Shown here: positions 5,655 through 59,672 of the stretch, in pieces
Position numbering within the stretch: the first letter of the stretch is position 1
Layout of the letters: every line of letters starts with the position of its first letter
Origin: a phage
Length of the DNA stretch: 64,000 bases
Assembly: GCA_012813795.1 (NCBI GenBank)
Contig: GCA_012813795.1_4087.1
Reading direction: 5' to 3' (one strand)
Notes under the pieces: model-generated
What the model saw: only the letters and a program-made list of their open reading frames with translations
What the model was told of the DNA's origin: nothing
Database searches by the model: none
Translations under genes and position numbers: made by a program

Positions 5655-6071
5655 TTATTTGATCAGAAATGTAAATTCGGGATTCATATCTCTTATTACT
5701 GAATTACGTCTTCTATCCCATACAACTTTACTAAAATACTCGGAGTCATCACATACTATCAGTATACAATTCCTAAGAGAACTCGTTGTGTAAGTACTTA
5801 AATCATTTTCTGTAATGAAATGAACATTCCAGTTGACTTGTACTGGATAATCTCGTTTAAAAAACAAAACTACTATAGGTCTTTCAGTACTCAATGCATT
5901 AATAAATTCGATTACACTATCATAGATTTCAGTACGGATATTATTGGTTTTTATTGTACTTATGTAATTCTGTTTAATTCCGTGCTCTTCATTGATTTGA
6001 TACTCAAAAAACTTTTTAAACAATTCTTTGGTTAAATCAGATGAATTTTTAATATTCGTTGCGTTACTCAT
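5655..6071 (-). CDS. hypothetical protein
   Basis: 138-aa track ORF. Confidence 0.5.
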   Translation of the reverse strand: MSNATNIKNSSDLTKELFKKFFEYQINEEHGIKQNYISTIKTNNIRTEIYDSVIEFINALSTERPIVVLFFKRDYPVQVNWNVHFITENDLSTYTTSSLRNCILIVCDDSEYFSKVVWDRRRNSVIRDMNPEFTFLIK

Positions 6072-6791
6072 TCACTTCGTTCTCTCGTAACTCAAGAATT
6101 CGTTTCGTTATCTACGATAACTCACTCATTCATATTAATTAATATTGTATTGTACTTTTAAAGATTGACGGGATTTGTTGAGGACATTTTCATCCCCCCG
6201 CAGGGGAATGATATTAAAAAAGAACCAATGAAGGTTCTTGATTTTGACGCTGATGGCATCGGAATTTATCGAATTGCGAATTTCTCCATATTTTGGACGG
6301 TTCAAGGGTGTCCAATTTTTGGAGAACGAAAGCGGGTTGCTCTGTTTCTCTCTATCGCAGTCATATGCAACGGTCGCAGGTATTTTCATCCCCTGCACTA
6401 AAGTACTGGAACTATTCGATCAATTCAGTACTCGTTTTACTCAATTTTTGGGTGCAACTTTCCCGTAGAAAAATTGACCGCTTGTTTTAAGTAAAACTCC
6501 CTTAGCAAATCTGGTAAGGTGCGATCCTTATACATCTATCGAGGAACTCTCTGTATGCTTATCGGAGTTCTTTATTGAGCCGTGTCGCCGTGTGATCCGT
6601 GTCTTATTTCGCGTTTGTATGAATGCACTTGGATGGTACTAACGGGTTTCTTTTGCTCATCGCCTCAGTGGGAAGGCTCATCTATCCTTTACATTTTCAA
6701 GAGAAGTAGGTTCTTCTTGTCCGTTGTTAAAACGTCCACTGACATTTTCCATTACAATATAATTATAGCACAATATAAAGTATTGTCCCAA
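6072..6791 (-). other. non-coding, GC-richer island; candidate structured RNA or regulatory region
   Basis: About 720 bp with no convincing ORF in a genome that is otherwise densely coding; short overlapping ORFs in several frames; minus-strand -10-like TATAAT near 6762-6767; duplicated TTTTCATCCCC, CCGTGT x3, several hairpins; closed by a minus-strand terminator near 6220. Confidence 0.35.
6214..6239 (-). terminator. intrinsic terminator (minus strand)
   Basis: Stem AAGAACC/GGTTCTT with 6-nt loop, followed on the minus strand by a T-run. Confidence 0.5.
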
Positions 6792-7205
6792 TTACATATA
6801 AACTTTTTTCAATTCTTTGCTGCTTCGTTCAAATACTGTTTCAATGAACTCAATATCCTGAAGAAGCTGTAGAGTACTGGCATCTGTCTCATTGCGTGAC
6901 ACATTTCTGTACTTTTGTTCAGGGTGATTGAATACCACCTTGACTACACTATTTAGGTCTACAAAATTTGACGTTTTTTTCGTATAGGAAGCCTGAAGCT
7001 TAATATACTTCCCATTATCTTGTAGATTAGTTTTATGAATTAGTTCTTCAATACCTGTAAGATGTAAATAACTATCTTCTTCTTTGACGAATGTAATAGT
7101 CAACAGTACTGTCTTTTCGTCTCCCATGTCAGAGATATTTTTCACAGCACTAACAATTTCCAAGTTTGAAAAATCTAAATCTTTAAGCATTACACATATT
7201 TCCAC
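6792..7205 (-). CDS. hypothetical protein
   Basis: 137-aa track ORF. Confidence 0.5.
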   Translation of the reverse strand: MEICVMLKDLDFSNLEIVSAVKNISDMGDEKTVLLTITFVKEEDSYLHLTGIEELIHKTNLQDNGKYIKLQASYTKKTSNFVDLNSVVKVVFNHPEQKYRNVSRNETDASTLQLLQDIEFIETVFERSSKELKKVYM

Positions 7206-7599: not shown

Positions 7600-8211
7600 T
7601 TACTCATGTTTATCCAACAGCTTTTGTGCCTTTTTTAATGCTTTCATGTGTCGCCCGTACTCACGAACATGCCACAGATGATCGTTATCCCATAGCTCTT
7701 GACGCAATTTACGTTCTTCGATCATTTCTGGTGTAGGACGTTTACTTTCCTTCTCAATCTTATTGAAATAACGATTCATATGTTCTTCAAGTAGATTTAG
7801 GTTTTTGACTTTCTCAAGGAATTCATCAACCGTTTCAGTTTTATTTGAACGCATTTGGTTGCATCTTGAGCACATTGTATTAAAGTTGGACTCCAAATCA
7901 GCACCACCTTTAGATGCAAGATGATTATGATCTACAGTCATCATAACTTCATAAAGACCACATACTGCATACACATTTAAATGCGGTTTACCATATACCG
8001 GATCACTACAGTTAGAACGTTCGATTCGAACTTCTGTAGCCTCGATGCCACAAGCAATGCACTTACAATTCTTAACGAATGTTAGTACTTTTTGTGGAAA
8101 GTATCTGAAAGTAATACCATTATAAGTATAACGTTTCATTTTGGTACTAGTATGATTGAGTTCATCTAGTAAACTCAATTTGGTTACATAATAAACATGA
8201 TATTTAGACAT
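7600..8211 (-). CDS. HNH endonuclease (free-standing homing-endonuclease-like)
   Basis: 203 aa; HNH signature DHNH...N...CSRCNQ plus upstream Cys pairs. Confidence 0.65.
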   Translation of the reverse strand: MSKYHVYYVTKLSLLDELNHTSTKMKRYTYNGITFRYFPQKVLTFVKNCKCIACGIEATEVRIERSNCSDPVYGKPHLNVYAVCGLYEVMMTVDHNHLASKGGADLESNFNTMCSRCNQMRSNKTETVDEFLEKVKNLNLLEEHMNRYFNKIEKESKRPTPEMIEERKLRQELWDNDHLWHVREYGRHMKALKKAQKLLDKHE

Positions 8212-8212
8212 A

Positions 8213-8527
8213 CTATTCCTTAACTTTTATGTTAACACGAATATTTTGGTCTTGGAGTTTGCGAATTGTATCAATTAGTGCATCATATCTCAGTGCACAT
8301 TCATTGTATATGGAATCCCAACGCGTCAGAACGTTAAGAATTTCATCACCAGCATATCCTCTATTACCATGTGAGTCAACAACAATTTTTTTAGGAATTG
8401 GTGTATCTTCTTCGCATCGTTCTAATAAGATTTCCTGGGTGATTATTGGTGACGCTTGAACTGGAACCTTATTAGAACACCCAGTGATAAACATAAAAGT
8501 AATCAAGAATGTTAATATGTATTTCAT
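8213..8527 (-). CDS. o-spanin-like outer-membrane lipoprotein
   Basis: 104 aa; signal peptide with lipobox FITGC; immediately downstream of the i-spanin-like gene with 4-nt overlap. Confidence 0.6.
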   Translation of the reverse strand: MKYILTFLITFMFITGCSNKVPVQASPIITQEILLERCEEDTPIPKKIVVDSHGNRGYAGDEILNVLTRWDSIYNECALRYDALIDTIRKLQDQNIRVNIKVKE

Positions 8528-58911: not shown

Positions 58912-59183
58912 TAGATTACCTCAATAATATCATCAATTGAGATATCAATACAATTATCGACAATGATATTCAATGTAAAATCATCATCTACATATACATT
59001 AGTGATTTTACCATAAACATTCATCCCATCATAAGATGATTTATAACGTACTCTTTTGTTAATATATTTTGCACGTAGAGTATTACTCTCACGGTACAAT
59101 ATATCCGTCAAACATTCTGATAGTACTTTATAATATAACAAATCACTTGAATGATTGTTTTTCATTGTATTTCCCAACTCCAA
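58911..59183 (-). CDS. small protein, K-[YL]-[IV]-G-[KR]-x-V family
   Basis: 90 aa; contains AKYINKRVRYK. Confidence 0.5.
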   Translation of the reverse strand: MELGNTMKNNHSSDLLYYKVLSECLTDILYRESNTLRAKYINKRVRYKSSYDGMNVYGKITNVYVDDDFTLNIIVDNCIDISIDDIIEVI

Positions 59184-59379
59184 ATCGCTTGGAGATTTTT
59201 ACAAGTACAGCTTCATCACAACGAATACTAGCAGTGTTATTGGATGAACTGTACTTTAAGGGGGTCCACTGTAATTGAGATTCTTCAAGGAACTTGATAC
59301 ATCTGAAGTAATCTTTCAGAGAAAGAAACTTAACCACTGACATATCCTGAACAATACTATGCTGAACTTCAACTTTCAT
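59143..59379 (-). CDS. hypothetical small protein
   Basis: 78-aa track ORF. Confidence 0.45.
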   Translation of the reverse strand: MKVEVQHSIVQDMSVVKFLSLKDYFRCIKFLEESQLQWTPLKYSSSNNTASIRCDEAVLVKISKRFGVGKYNEKQSFK

Positions 59380-59388
59380 ATGAACTCC

Positions 59389-59646
59389 TTATAGTGGATC
59401 GAATTTATTTTCACGTTTCGATGTATAGCGAGTTACATCATGTATTCTCGGCTTAACATCCTTTGGTTTCCTTTTCTTCTTATATTCAGTACTACTACAC
59501 CCAAAAGTATTCTCGATTCGCTTCTTACTAATCTTCACACCTTTCATTGAGCGTTTGTGCTGTAAATCATCGATTTCTTGTTGTATTTTCCTGAACTCAG
59601 TAGGAGAAAGGGAACCATCATTTTTATACTTAGGTTTAGCCATCAC
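59389..59646 (-). CDS. small basic protein
   Basis: 85 aa, K/R-rich. Confidence 0.45.
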   Translation of the reverse strand: MMAKPKYKNDGSLSPTEFRKIQQEIDDLQHKRSMKGVKISKKRIENTFGCSSTEYKKKRKPKDVKPRIHDVTRYTSKRENKFDPL

Positions 59647-59672
59647 TTCTCCTTGTGCTGGGCTAGTTAGTA

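What the first reader, a model, noticed from the sequence alone, without database searches (positions are those of the whole stretch)
6072..6791. 720-bp non-coding, GC-richer island with promoter, terminator and short repeats
This is the longest ORF-free stretch in the window. Its composition is visibly less AT-rich than the flanks, it has a minus-strand TATAAT-like box at its upstream end and a good minus-strand terminator at its downstream end, which would give a transcript of about 540 nt. It also contains a CCCC-GCA-GGGG hairpin, duplicated TTTTCATCCCC and three CCGTGT repeats. I searched it for tRNA cloverleaf signatures and found none. It may encode a structured regulatory RNA or be a replication or protein-binding region.
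Basis: seen in the sequence. Interest (0 to 1): 0.6.

Follow-up and report, generated by a model that had tools for sequence, protein, structure and literature searches.

The report
New large structured phage RNA gene
The 720-bp gap is not empty DNA but a gene for a roughly 540-nucleotide, intricately folded non-coding RNA of a family that no database or paper I could search describes, present in 2-5 copies (by BLAST) in giant RaK2-like phages and singly in mobile islands of enterobacterial chromosomes; what it does is still unknown.

Summary
Window 6072-6791 (Escherichia jumbo phage A4) is non-coding. It carries a minus-strand extended -10 promoter (6790-6762) and an intrinsic terminator (6238-6215).

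It is one of four diverged paralogues in A4. It belongs to a family of at least 58 non-redundant full-length sequences. These come from RaK2-like jumbo phages (2-5 BLAST places per genome), metagenomes, and bacterial chromosomes, where a single copy usually sits after an integrase, often facing a cI repressor gene.

A 21-helix model with five pseudoknot or long-range pairings is strongly supported by covariation. 90.9% of cells are paired, against 73% when shuffled and about 40% when slid. 80 of 105 pairs show compensatory changes.

Rfam 15, ARAGORN and literature searches find no known family. All mechanical ORFs are frame-broken in the nearest orthologue.

Best reading: a stand-alone, abundant, trans-acting "ornate" RNA, comparable in kind to ROOL and GOLLD. 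Function is unknown.

Unresolved points keep two rivals alive, an origin-primer RNA and a cis-acting leader:
- conservation continues past the terminator;
- two direct repeats co-vary in identity;
- paralogue positions are syntenic.

Interest is high.

The parts
6762..6790 (-). Promoter: -35-like TGGGAC (6790-6785), 17-nt spacer that includes TG (6770-6769), -10 TATAAT (6767-6762). The transcription start is inferred at about 6755.
   Evidence: scan. The same tGrrAC-N-TGnTATAAT/TATACT architecture is present in all 58 non-redundant family members and in the bacterial copies. This promoter class precedes replication genes in A4 and in phage CBB (PMC5259590).
6215..6755 (-). Body of the roughly 540-nt structured RNA, from the inferred start to the end of the terminator U-run.
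   Evidence: nhmmer gives 421 bits to the family profile. MFE z-score is -5.2. Covariation statistics are, and RNAalifold recovers 64 pairs, 42 of them with compensatory changes.
6665..6742 (-). PK5: the 5' leader (6742-6736) pairs with the loop of hairpin H2 (6671-6665). The H2 stem is 6677-6675 / 6664-6662. Hairpin H1 (6709-6699 / 6689-6682), with the conserved loop GAAAAUGUA, lies between.
   Evidence: H2 is 100% paired with three pair types. PK5 is 88% paired with compensatory changes. H1 is 92% paired.
6576..6659 (-). H3 (6659-6655 / 6580-6576) encloses H4 (6645-6642 / 6591-6588) and a variable insertion.
   Evidence: H3 is 100% paired, with 4 of 5 pairs compensatory. H4 is 99.6% paired.
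6504..6585 (-). H5 hairpin (6570-6565 / 6549-6544). PK3 pairs the H5 loop (6559-6556) with 6507-6504. PK4 is 6585-6583 with 6534-6532. H6 is 6530-6527 / 6518-6515. The conserved junctions are CGAUAGAYRUAUAAGG and CUAAGGGAG.
   Evidence: H5 is 94% paired with every pair compensatory. PK4 is 98% paired. PK3 is 86% paired.
6404..6497 (-). H7 (6497-6493 / 6438-6434) closes a variable insertion. The H8 hairpin (6431-6422 / 6413-6404) carries the loop 6419-6414, which forms PK2.
   Evidence: (L-INS-i alignment): H7 has 54/55 cells paired at most positions, with 3-5 pair types. H7 is misaligned in A2. H8 has all 10 pairs compensatory.
6269..6397 (-). 3' core. H9 is 6397-6393 / 6379-6375. PK1 pairs GUUGC (6371-6367) with GCAAC (6340-6336) in the H12 loop. 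H11 is 6359-6355 / 6279-6275, H12 is 6352-6348 / 6332-6328, and H13 is 6326-6322 / 6286-6282. The PK2 3' strand AUUCGA (6274-6269) pairs with the H8 loop.
   Evidence: PK2 is 100% paired with all 6 pairs compensatory. PK1 is 100%, H11 99% and H12 100% paired. This is the most conserved part of the family.
6244..6254 (-). Direct repeat 1, AUCAGCGUCAA.
   Evidence: its variable positions change together with those of repeat 2.
6215..6238 (-). Intrinsic terminator H15 (6238-6233 / 6226-6221) plus the U-run.
   Evidence: The stem is 88.6% paired with 5 of 6 pairs compensatory, but only 33 of 58 members have it. No co-varying antiterminator was found.
6190..6211 (-). H16, a conserved G/C hairpin UCAUUCCCC-UGCG-GGGGGAUGA lying downstream of the terminator.
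   Evidence: 7 of 9 pairs vary on one side only (C-G to U-G). That variation preserves pairing only on the minus-strand RNA.
6165..6174 (-). Direct repeat 2, AUCCCGUCAA.
6063..6163 (-). AT-rich spacer (6163-6125), followed by conserved downstream hairpins: GUUAUC-GUA-GAUAAC (6121-6107) and GAGUUAC...GUAAC (6093-6063). The second has the loop GAACGAAGUGA (6082-6072) and overlaps the start codon at 6071.
   Evidence: Hairpins with the loop GAACGNAGUGA and the form UUGAC-stem-GGCAA follow the RNA in most phage and bacterial copies. Whether they belong to the same transcript is not known.

Best explanation
Window ~6755 to ~6215, minus strand, is a stand-alone gene for a ~540-nt non-coding RNA of a family not found in Rfam 15 or in the literature I could search.

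Shown:
- A conserved sigma-70-type extended -10 promoter, so transcription by host RNA polymerase is likely.
- An intrinsic terminator in this copy.
- A compact fold of at least 16 helices tied together by five pseudoknot or long-range pairings, with large blocks of invariant unpaired nucleotides in the junctions.
- No conserved reading frame.
- Four diverged paralogues in phage A4, 2-5 BLAST places in every RaK2-like jumbo phage, and single copies in enterobacterial integrative elements.

Inferred:
- The RNA itself is the product and acts in trans.
- It is needed in quantity, because several expressed paralogues share the same core.
- It works as a folded RNA particle (scaffold, cage or decoy) that engages a conserved host component rather than a dedicated neighbouring protein, since no neighbour gene is shared between contexts.
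- By analogy with ROOL and GOLLD, some of the co-varying 'pseudoknots' may in fact be contacts between RNA molecules. The clearest candidate is the H8 loop with the 3' strand 6274-6269, which has a different sequence in each paralogue.
For: - Strand and transcription signals.
- Four A4 paralogues at 60-70% identity with invariant core blocks.
- Family size: 90 full-length hits, 58 non-redundant.
- Structure: 90.9% of cells paired, against 73.4% shuffled and 38-44% slid. 80 of 105 pairs are compensatory. Covariation score is 0.456 against 0.165, with 0 of 500 shuffles as high. RNAalifold independently recovers the nested helices. The top mutual-information pairs are almost all model pairs. MFE z-score is -5.2.
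- Non-coding: every mechanical ORF has 3-9 frame-shifting indels in the nearest orthologue, 121Q, at about 80% identity.
- No shared neighbour protein. Downstream genes differ, and one paralogue class faces a convergent baseplate-hub gene.
- Not a known family: Rfam at gathering and E-value thresholds on the window and on 13 homologues, ARAGORN, no PGAP feature in E. coli, and literature searches.
- Precedent for large phage-borne RNA-only assemblies whose 'tertiary' covariation proved to be intermolecular: PMC12286853.
Against: - There is no expression data for any member.
- Conservation continues past the terminator (H16, the second repeat, downstream hairpins), and 25 of 58 members have no terminator. 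In part of the family the RNA must therefore be co-transcribed with downstream genes.
- Paralogues keep syntenic positions across genera: copy D after a sigma-factor gene in both A4 and RaK2, and copy B next to the baseplate hub. All four A4 copies have one orientation. That pattern would also fit a position-dependent cis role.
- The identity-covarying direct repeats are not explained by this model.
- Trans action, abundance and any partner are inference only.
Confidence: 0.55

Rival explanations
1. Replication-origin primer RNA. Each copy marks an origin. The transcript from a replication-class promoter folds and forms a persistent RNA-DNA hybrid near the G-run, the repeats and the AT-rich spacer, and primes leading-strand synthesis. 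The comparison is with ColE1 RNA II (~550 nt) or T4 oriF/oriG, which use a middle promoter plus a downstream unwinding element. That comparison rests on my own knowledge and is not tested here.
For: - The promoter class is the one placed before SSB, primase, topoisomerase II, exonuclease and the DNA polymerase region in A4, and before DNA-synthesis genes in CBB.
- The four A4 copies are spread over the genome (65, 126, 206, 321 kb of 355 kb), all in one orientation and at syntenic places.
- A conserved G6 run, two identical short repeats (iteron-like) and a ~40-bp AT-rich stretch follow the RNA.
- The whole module, promoter to downstream hairpins, moves as a unit into integrative islands.
Against: - Five co-varying pseudoknots and long invariant junctions are far more structure than known primer RNAs need.
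- GC skew follows gene orientation and shows no origin signature at three of the four sites.
- In prophage-like elements the RNA lies between int and cI, not by replication genes.
- Repeat variants differ between paralogues of one genome, which is odd for sites read by a single initiator protein.
Confidence: 0.15
2. Giant cis-acting leader or transcription-control module. The folded RNA acts on the polymerase or transcript that makes it (sensor-controlled read-through, processive antitermination, or regulated convergent/antisense transcription). It would set expression of the downstream genes, or silence the facing gene: the baseplate hub in phages, cI in islands.
For: - Most copies are followed within 40-170 nt by a co-directional ORF, and 25 of 58 have no terminator.
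- Conserved hairpins lie between the RNA and the next start codon. In some copies they include the start codon itself.
- In five bacterial loci the RNA converges on cI. In one phage paralogue class it converges on the baseplate-hub gene.
Against: - No alternative pairing co-varies with either terminator strand.
- Downstream genes are unrelated between copies.
- Known cis antitermination RNAs and riboswitches are several-fold smaller.
- The terminator-bearing copies that face a convergent gene look like self-contained units.
Confidence: 0.15
3. Ribozyme or self-processing (possibly self-mobile) RNA. The conserved junction nucleotides form an active site, and the two identical CGUCA(A/G) motifs are processing or ligation sites that release or rearrange the 3' segment.
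For: - The size, multiple pseudoknots and invariant unpaired blocks resemble large ribozymes.
- Two direct repeats are kept identical within each copy across several clades.
- The module has spread between unrelated genomes.
Against: - There is no match to any ribozyme family in Rfam.
- No internal guide complementary to the repeats exists.
- There are no exon-like flanks and no associated endonuclease or reverse transcriptase.
- None of this is testable in silico.
Confidence: 0.1
4. Not an RNA at all: either a DNA-level protein-binding or recombination region, or a missed protein-coding gene.
For: - GenBank annotates a 49-aa CDS here.
- Short repeats and a palindrome are present.
- The bacterial copies lie near integrases.
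Against: - Compensatory base-pair changes occur in 80 of 105 pairs.
- G.U-type one-sided variation pairs on one strand only.
- All ORFs are broken by frameshifts in orthologues.
- The integrase type varies (tyrosine or serine), and integrases are absent from the phage copies.
Confidence: 0.03

Closest known systems
ROOL and GOLLD (large 'ornate' RNAs of phages and prophages; Rfam families; PMC12286853, PMC5737381)
   Same: They are 500-800-nt RNAs encoded by phages and prophages. They have many helices and pseudoknots defined by covariation, variable linker insertions, no associated protein and unknown function. They are stand-alone genes.
   Different: There is no sequence or structure match to their covariance models, even at E<=10. 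The hosts here are Enterobacterales and Xanthomonas jumbo myoviruses, not Lactobacillales, rumen or marine phages. The copies are not next to tRNA islands: the A4 tRNAs lie at 304-307 kb, away from all four copies. They occur as 2-5 diverged paralogues per genome. Oligomerisation is untested.
ColE1 RNA II / T4 oriF-oriG origin transcripts (from my own knowledge)
   Same: A promoter-driven, folded RNA of about 550 nt that ends near a G-rich segment and an AT-rich stretch. The promoter class is shared with replication genes, and there are several copies per large genome.
   Different: The fold is far more elaborate and more conserved. No origin function is shown, and the skew gives no support.
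Cis-acting antitermination and leader RNAs (HK022 put, rrn/lambda nut boxA-boxB, T-box leaders; from my own knowledge)
   Same: The RNA lies between a promoter and downstream genes. A hairpin followed by a conserved linear motif (CUCAACAAAU...) lies after a terminator. Paralogue-specific short motifs are present.
   Different: It is 5-8 times larger. No co-varying antiterminator exists. One paralogue class has no downstream gene. There is no Rfam match.
PA5oct lncRNAs ncRNA001-004 (RNA-seq-defined, PMC7318152)
   Same: They are ORF-free transcripts of 236-619 nt in a jumbo phage distantly related to 121Q and RaK2. Two are very abundant (2-5% of phage reads).
   Different: nhmmer finds no homology to ncRNA001 or ncRNA002. 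Their structure is not known.

Membership tests
ROOL / GOLLD / OLE / raiA / HEARO (large bacterial and phage RNAs in Rfam) | A match to the family covariance model (sequence plus consensus structure). | tested here: not met
   There are no hits at gathering score in the 64-kb window. There are none at E<=10 in 5900-7000, and none at E<=5 in 13 homologous loci.
ROOL / GOLLD kind (ornate RNA-only assemblies) | Homo-oligomeric RNA-only complex held by intermolecular kissing loops. | not testable with these tools
   Covariation cannot tell intra- from intermolecular pairing. PK2 (6419-6414 with 6274-6269) is a candidate.
Group I / group II introns, RNase P RNA, small self-cleaving ribozymes | A covariance-model match and the family's core elements (for example P3-P7 with a G-binding site; domain V; the P4 CR-I/CR-V blocks). 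| tested here: not met
   There is no Rfam hit on the window or on the homologues. There are no flanking exons, because each copy has its own promoter in an intergenic region. The resemblance of ACAGAGCAACCCGCUU to RNase P CR-V is local only, and that segment sits in a different pairing context (the H12 loop, pairing in PK1).
tRNA / tmRNA | A cloverleaf or tmRNA fold detected by ARAGORN. | tested here: not met
   0 genes in the window.
Riboswitch / attenuator leader | A terminator whose strands have a mutually exclusive, conserved alternative pairing (antiterminator). | tested here: not met
   Among the 33 members that have the terminator, its variable stem positions pair only with each other. 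25 of 58 members lack a terminator.
CRISPR repeat / RNA anti-CRISPR mimic | A repeat-like hairpin matching a CRISPR-DR model at family threshold, and repeat-spacer organisation. | tested here: not met
   There are only sub-threshold plus-strand hits to CRISPR-DR39, DR37 and DR57 on hairpin 6186-6222 (18-23 bits against gathering scores of 39-40, E about 1). It is a single hairpin with no array, and the G.U variation places it on the minus strand.
Origin primer RNA (ColE1 RNA II-like) | A persistent RNA-DNA hybrid, and a DNA synthesis start at the RNA 3' end. | not testable with these tools
   Only circumstantial evidence is available: promoter class, copy spacing and an uninformative skew.
Protein-coding gene | A reading frame conserved in homologues. 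| tested here: not met
   There are 3-10 frame-shifting indels per ORF in homologues at 62-84% identity, and stops in nearly all of them.

The most novel reading that the evidence does not exclude
This is a new class of ornate RNA shared between giant lytic phages and small integrative islands of their hosts. It would act either as an RNA-only multi-subunit assembly or ribozyme built from several paralogous chains, or as the cis element (origin or recognition module) by which the islands exploit or interfere with jumbo-phage infection. In the second case the islands would be satellites or defence elements aimed at jumbo phages.
Probability: 0.25. Interest if true: 0.9.

Novelty: categorically new. 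Interest (0 to 1): 0.8.

Why it matters
Large RNAs with many pseudoknots and invariant junctions are rare. The known ones have nearly all turned out to be ribozymes, ribonucleoprotein cores or, most recently, RNA-only cages.

This family is unrelated to all of them. It is easy to study because its hosts include E. coli, its phages (A4, PBECO4, 121Q and others) are already isolated, and it has deep covariation. It is kept in several copies by a whole clade of jumbo phages whose biology is mostly unknown.

Its presence in chromosomal islands next to integrases and repressors links jumbo phages to small mobile elements of the same hosts.

Whatever the function turns out to be (particle, primer, regulator or catalyst), it is directly testable. 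It also corrects spurious 'hypothetical protein' annotations in dozens of phage genomes.

Tried and rejected
- Rfam at curated and permissive thresholds on the window, the region and 13 homologues found nothing recurrent.
- ARAGORN found nothing.
- Self-BLAST of the window found no second copy inside it. An early BLAST against A4 chunks returned nothing because of a file-naming slip; it was redone.
- The PA5oct RNA-seq lncRNAs are not homologous.
- mafft-qinsi was unavailable, so L-INS-i was used instead.
- A long-range pairing of CUAAGGGAG with the 3' UCCCG was rejected. The U-to-C change at r585 is uncompensated in 19 sequences.
- Pairing of the repeats with the invariant GAUGAG, or with any other segment within -300/+400 nt, gave no consistent partner.
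- No antiterminator for the terminator was found.
- The hairpin-loop motif GAACGNAGUGA is not a genome-wide motif: there are only 4 sites in A4, one of them at this locus.
- GC skew as an origin test was uninformative.
- Twelve pattern-scan loci had at best marginal local HMM hits (E > 0.03) and were treated as chance matches.
- The 761-bp 'gap' at 58912-59672 is filled by three small minus-strand ORFs, so it is not a second RNA.
- The supplements of the viral structured-RNA survey are not held, so I could not check whether that survey lists this locus.
- I did not build a covariance model. The RNA exceeds the 400-column and ~190-position limits, and nhmmer already separates members cleanly.

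Full report
**What the region is.** The window is Escherichia phage A4 (ON286972.1, Asteriusvirus, 355 kb). Window position p corresponds to record position 132479 - p on the reverse strand. Positions 6072-6791 lie between two minus-strand genes of unknown function. The region is GC-richer than its surroundings: 39.4% overall and 42.3% in the core, against 34.4% for the window.

- a minus-strand promoter, with TGGGAC at 6790-6785, TG at 6770-6769 and TATAAT at 6767-6762;
- a minus-strand intrinsic terminator at 6238-6215;
- the CCCC-GCA-GGGG hairpin;
- two copies of TTTTCATCCCC;
- three copies of CCGTGT.

The stretch is not literally ORF-free. It holds mechanical ORFs of up to 96 aa, and GenBank annotates a 49-aa CDS (A4_511) antisense to the RNA. 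Each of these ORFs carries 3-9 frame-shifting indels, and nearly all carry stops, in the closest orthologue, 121Q, at about 80% identity. The region is therefore non-coding.

**It is a conserved, multi-copy element.** BLASTN against phage records finds the region in 72 records, all of them RaK2-like jumbo phages. Hosts are Escherichia, Salmonella, Klebsiella, Yersinia, Cronobacter, Serratia, Erwinia, Pectobacterium and Xanthomonas. Identity is 68-80%, with 2-5 places per genome.

I fetched the whole A4 genome and found four paralogues, all in the same orientation:
- A, this window (record 126 kb);
- B, at 206 kb, next to the endonuclease VII and baseplate-hub genes;
- C, at 65 kb;
- D, at 321 kb, just after a sigma-70-family factor gene.

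RaK2 has a copy after its own sigma-factor gene, and Salmonella phage PHA46 has one next to its baseplate hub. The paralogues are therefore old and syntenic. They are 60-70% identical to each other but share long invariant blocks.

Pattern scans of IMG/VR and metagenomes, followed by an nhmmer profile search, gave 90 full-length copies, 58 of them non-redundant at 95% identity.

**Strand and transcription signals.** Every one of the 58 sequences has the same promoter upstream of the conserved core: tG(G/A)(G/A)AC, a spacer, then TGnTATAAT or TATACT.

In A4 this promoter class occurs about 16 times. It lies in front of the SSB, primase, topoisomerase II and exonuclease genes, the DNA polymerase region and the late sigma factor. 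The CBB paper describes the same 'divergent RpoD-like' class (-35 TGAAACG) before DNA-synthesis genes (PMC5259590).

The terminator stem co-varies, but only 33 of 58 members have it.

**Structure.** Scans for mutual information and stacked canonical pairs on an L-INS-i alignment recovered a nested scaffold plus five crossing pairings. In window coordinates the crossing pairings are:
- PK5, the 5' leader with the H2 loop (6742-6736 / 6671-6665);
- PK4 (6585-6583 / 6534-6532);
- PK3, the H5 loop with 6507-6504;
- PK1, GUUGC (6371-6367) with GCAAC (6340-6336) in the H12 loop;
- PK2, the H8 loop (6419-6414) with 6274-6269.

I counted the 21-helix, 105-pair model on the tool's own MAFFT alignment, A2:

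| Measure | Model | Shuffled | 3' partners slid |
|---|---|---|---|
| Cells paired | 90.9% | 73.4% | 38-44% |
| Covariation score | 0.456 | 0.165 | not above 0.124 |

80 of the 105 pairs show compensatory changes, and 0 of 500 shuffles reach any observed measure. PK2, PK1, H2, H3 and H12 are 100% paired.

RNAalifold independently predicts 64 nested pairs, 42 of them with compensatory changes. The window RNA folds 5.2 standard deviations better than shuffles.

Hairpin H16 varies almost only by C-G to U-G changes. Those changes preserve pairing only on the minus strand, which fixes the strand and shows that RNA-level constraint extends past the terminator.

**Not a known family.** The following searches found nothing:
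- Rfam 15 at gathering scores on the whole window, and at permissive E-values on the region and on 13 homologous loci. Nothing recurred, and the only hits were sub-threshold chance matches.
- ARAGORN.
- PGAP, which annotates nothing at the E. coli copies.
- Five full-text literature searches, which turned up no description.

The RNA-seq-defined lncRNAs of the distant relative PA5oct are not homologous.

**Unexpected distribution.** The same pattern scan over one genome per bacterial species found nine full-length homologues (300-376 bits) in assemblies filed as Citrobacter, Serratia (one in a complete chromosome), Enterobacter, Silvania, Buttiauxella, unnamed Enterobacteriaceae and one Clostridium MAG contig. 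It is also present in 2 of 5,426 complete E. coli genomes.

In the bacterial genomes it is a single copy inside integrative elements. It typically sits directly after the integrase gene. The integrase is a tyrosine or a large serine type, so its type is not conserved. In five loci the RNA converges on a cI-like repressor gene, which is followed by a cro-like gene. In E. coli LR-29-1 it sits in a ~10-kb island beside ffs that also carries the candidate defence system PDC-M45.

The bacterial copies keep the promoter, the whole fold, hairpin H16, both repeats and the downstream hairpins. The module therefore moves as a unit.

**Features I cannot explain.**
- Two ~10-nt direct repeats, A(U/C)C(A)N-CGUCA-(A/G), lie at 6254-6244 and 6174-6165 and bracket the terminator and H16. 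Their variable positions change together in identity: 58 of 58 sequences at one position and 54 of 58 at another. A G-to-U change appears in both repeats in the RaK2-like sequences. These joint changes occur in several separate clades.
- No complementary partner for the repeats exists within the RNA or its flanks.
- Conservation continues after the terminator and into two further hairpins. One has the loop GAACGNAGUGA and the other the form UUGAC-stem-GGCAA. In this window they reach the start codon of gene 5655..6071.
- An optional module, UACAAUAUAGAUCCGUCCAAAAUU, is inserted in one or two peripheral helices in many members.

**Interpretation.** What is shown is a promoter-driven, non-coding, highly structured RNA of a new family. 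For how it works I favour, at about 0.55, a stand-alone RNA that acts in trans and in quantity as a folded particle. The reasons are:
- several expressed paralogues share one core;
- no neighbour protein is shared across contexts;
- one paralogue class faces a convergent gene and always has a terminator;
- ROOL and GOLLD are precedents, phage-borne ornate RNAs that form RNA-only cages, in which a co-varying 'tertiary' contact in ROOL proved to be intermolecular.

Each paralogue has its own PK2 sequence, as expected if mis-pairing between co-expressed chains must be avoided.

The rivals are:
- An origin-primer RNA (0.15). In its favour are the replication-class promoter, the spread of co-oriented syntenic copies, and the G-run, repeats and AT-rich tail. 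Against it are the far greater structure than known primer RNAs need, and an uninformative GC skew.
- A cis-acting leader or convergent-transcription controller (0.15). In its favour, many copies lack terminators and abut downstream genes or face cI. Against it, no co-varying antiterminator exists and the downstream genes are unrelated.
- A ribozyme or self-processing RNA that uses the repeats as processing sites (0.1).
- A purely DNA-level or protein-coding reading, which essentially exclude.

**Verdict.** The element extends from 6790 to about 6063. The 'structured RNA' reading is correct. The RNA belongs to no described family, so I rate it categorically new as an RNA class. The general kind, large ornate phage RNAs of unknown function, does have precedents. 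Interest is 0.8.

Noticed in passing
ON286972.1 record 65168-65647 (L003 15168-15647), 205622-206182 (L005 23623-24183), 320997-321455 (L007 38998-39456): Three further paralogues of the element lie outside the window. All have the same orientation as the window copy. One sits just after a sigma-70-family factor gene and one beside the endonuclease VII and baseplate-hub genes.
   Followed up: yes
L138 3519-4133; L142 3681-4207; L134, L135, L137, L139, L140, L145; L147 20001-20583: Full-length homologues occur in bacterial chromosomes (Citrobacter, Serratia, Enterobacter, Silvania, Buttiauxella, E. coli). They sit inside integrative elements, typically right after a tyrosine or large serine integrase and often converging on a cI-like repressor gene. 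The E. coli island lies next to ffs and also carries the PADLOC candidate defence system PDC-M45.
   Followed up: partly
window 6254-6244 and 6174-6165 (minus strand): Two ~10-nt direct repeats bracket the terminator and the GC hairpin. They are kept identical to each other within each copy while differing between copies and clades. No complementary partner was found.
   Followed up: partly
window 6121-6063 (minus strand): Hairpins downstream of the RNA are conserved. The second (6093-6063) has the loop GAACGAAGUGA and contains UACGAGAGAAC, which is close to the 23S sarcin-ricin loop sequence UACGAGAGGAC as I recall it. It overlaps the start codon (6071) of gene 5655..6071.
   Followed up: partly
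window 6319-6468 (+), GenBank CDS A4_511: This annotated 49-aa 'hypothetical protein' lies antisense inside the RNA gene, and its frame is not conserved. Many related phage records list 1-4 'hypothetical proteins' over the same locus. These are probably mis-annotations.
   Followed up: yes
window near 8292, 52863 and 59899 (minus strand); A4 record 137804, 200839, 221110, 233982, 244019, 250421, 267373 and others: A promoter class TG(G/A)GACA-N13-TGnTATAAT recurs about 16 times in A4. It lies in front of the SSB, primase, topoisomerase II and exonuclease genes, the DNA polymerase region and the late sigma factor gene. The RNA genes use the same class.
   Followed up: partly
L003 15104-15150; L025, L028, L031, L041, L080 (5' ends of the aligned RNAs in A2, columns 1-45): In several family members, including A4 copy C, a stable hairpin followed by a U-run lies directly after the predicted transcription start, ahead of the conserved fold. 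It could be a 5' protective hairpin or an attenuator.
   Followed up: no
A2 columns ~500-530 and ~670-700 (window 6478-6450 and 6317-6293): An optional ~25-nt module (UACAAUAUAGAUCCGUCCAAAAUU-like) is inserted in the H7 insertion, the H13 insertion, or both, in different members. It looks like a modular peripheral element.
   Followed up: no
window 7600-8211 (minus strand): An HNH endonuclease gene (A4_508) lies about 0.8 kb upstream of the RNA gene. Putative HNH genes also lie about 1 kb (A4_402) and 3 kb (A4_397) upstream of copy C. This may be coincidence, since these phages carry many HNH genes.
   Followed up: no
window 58912-59672: This is the only stretch longer than the target without an ORF of at least 100 aa. 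It holds three consecutive small minus-strand ORFs (85, 78 and 90 aa), so it is a small-gene cluster rather than non-coding DNA.
   Followed up: partly
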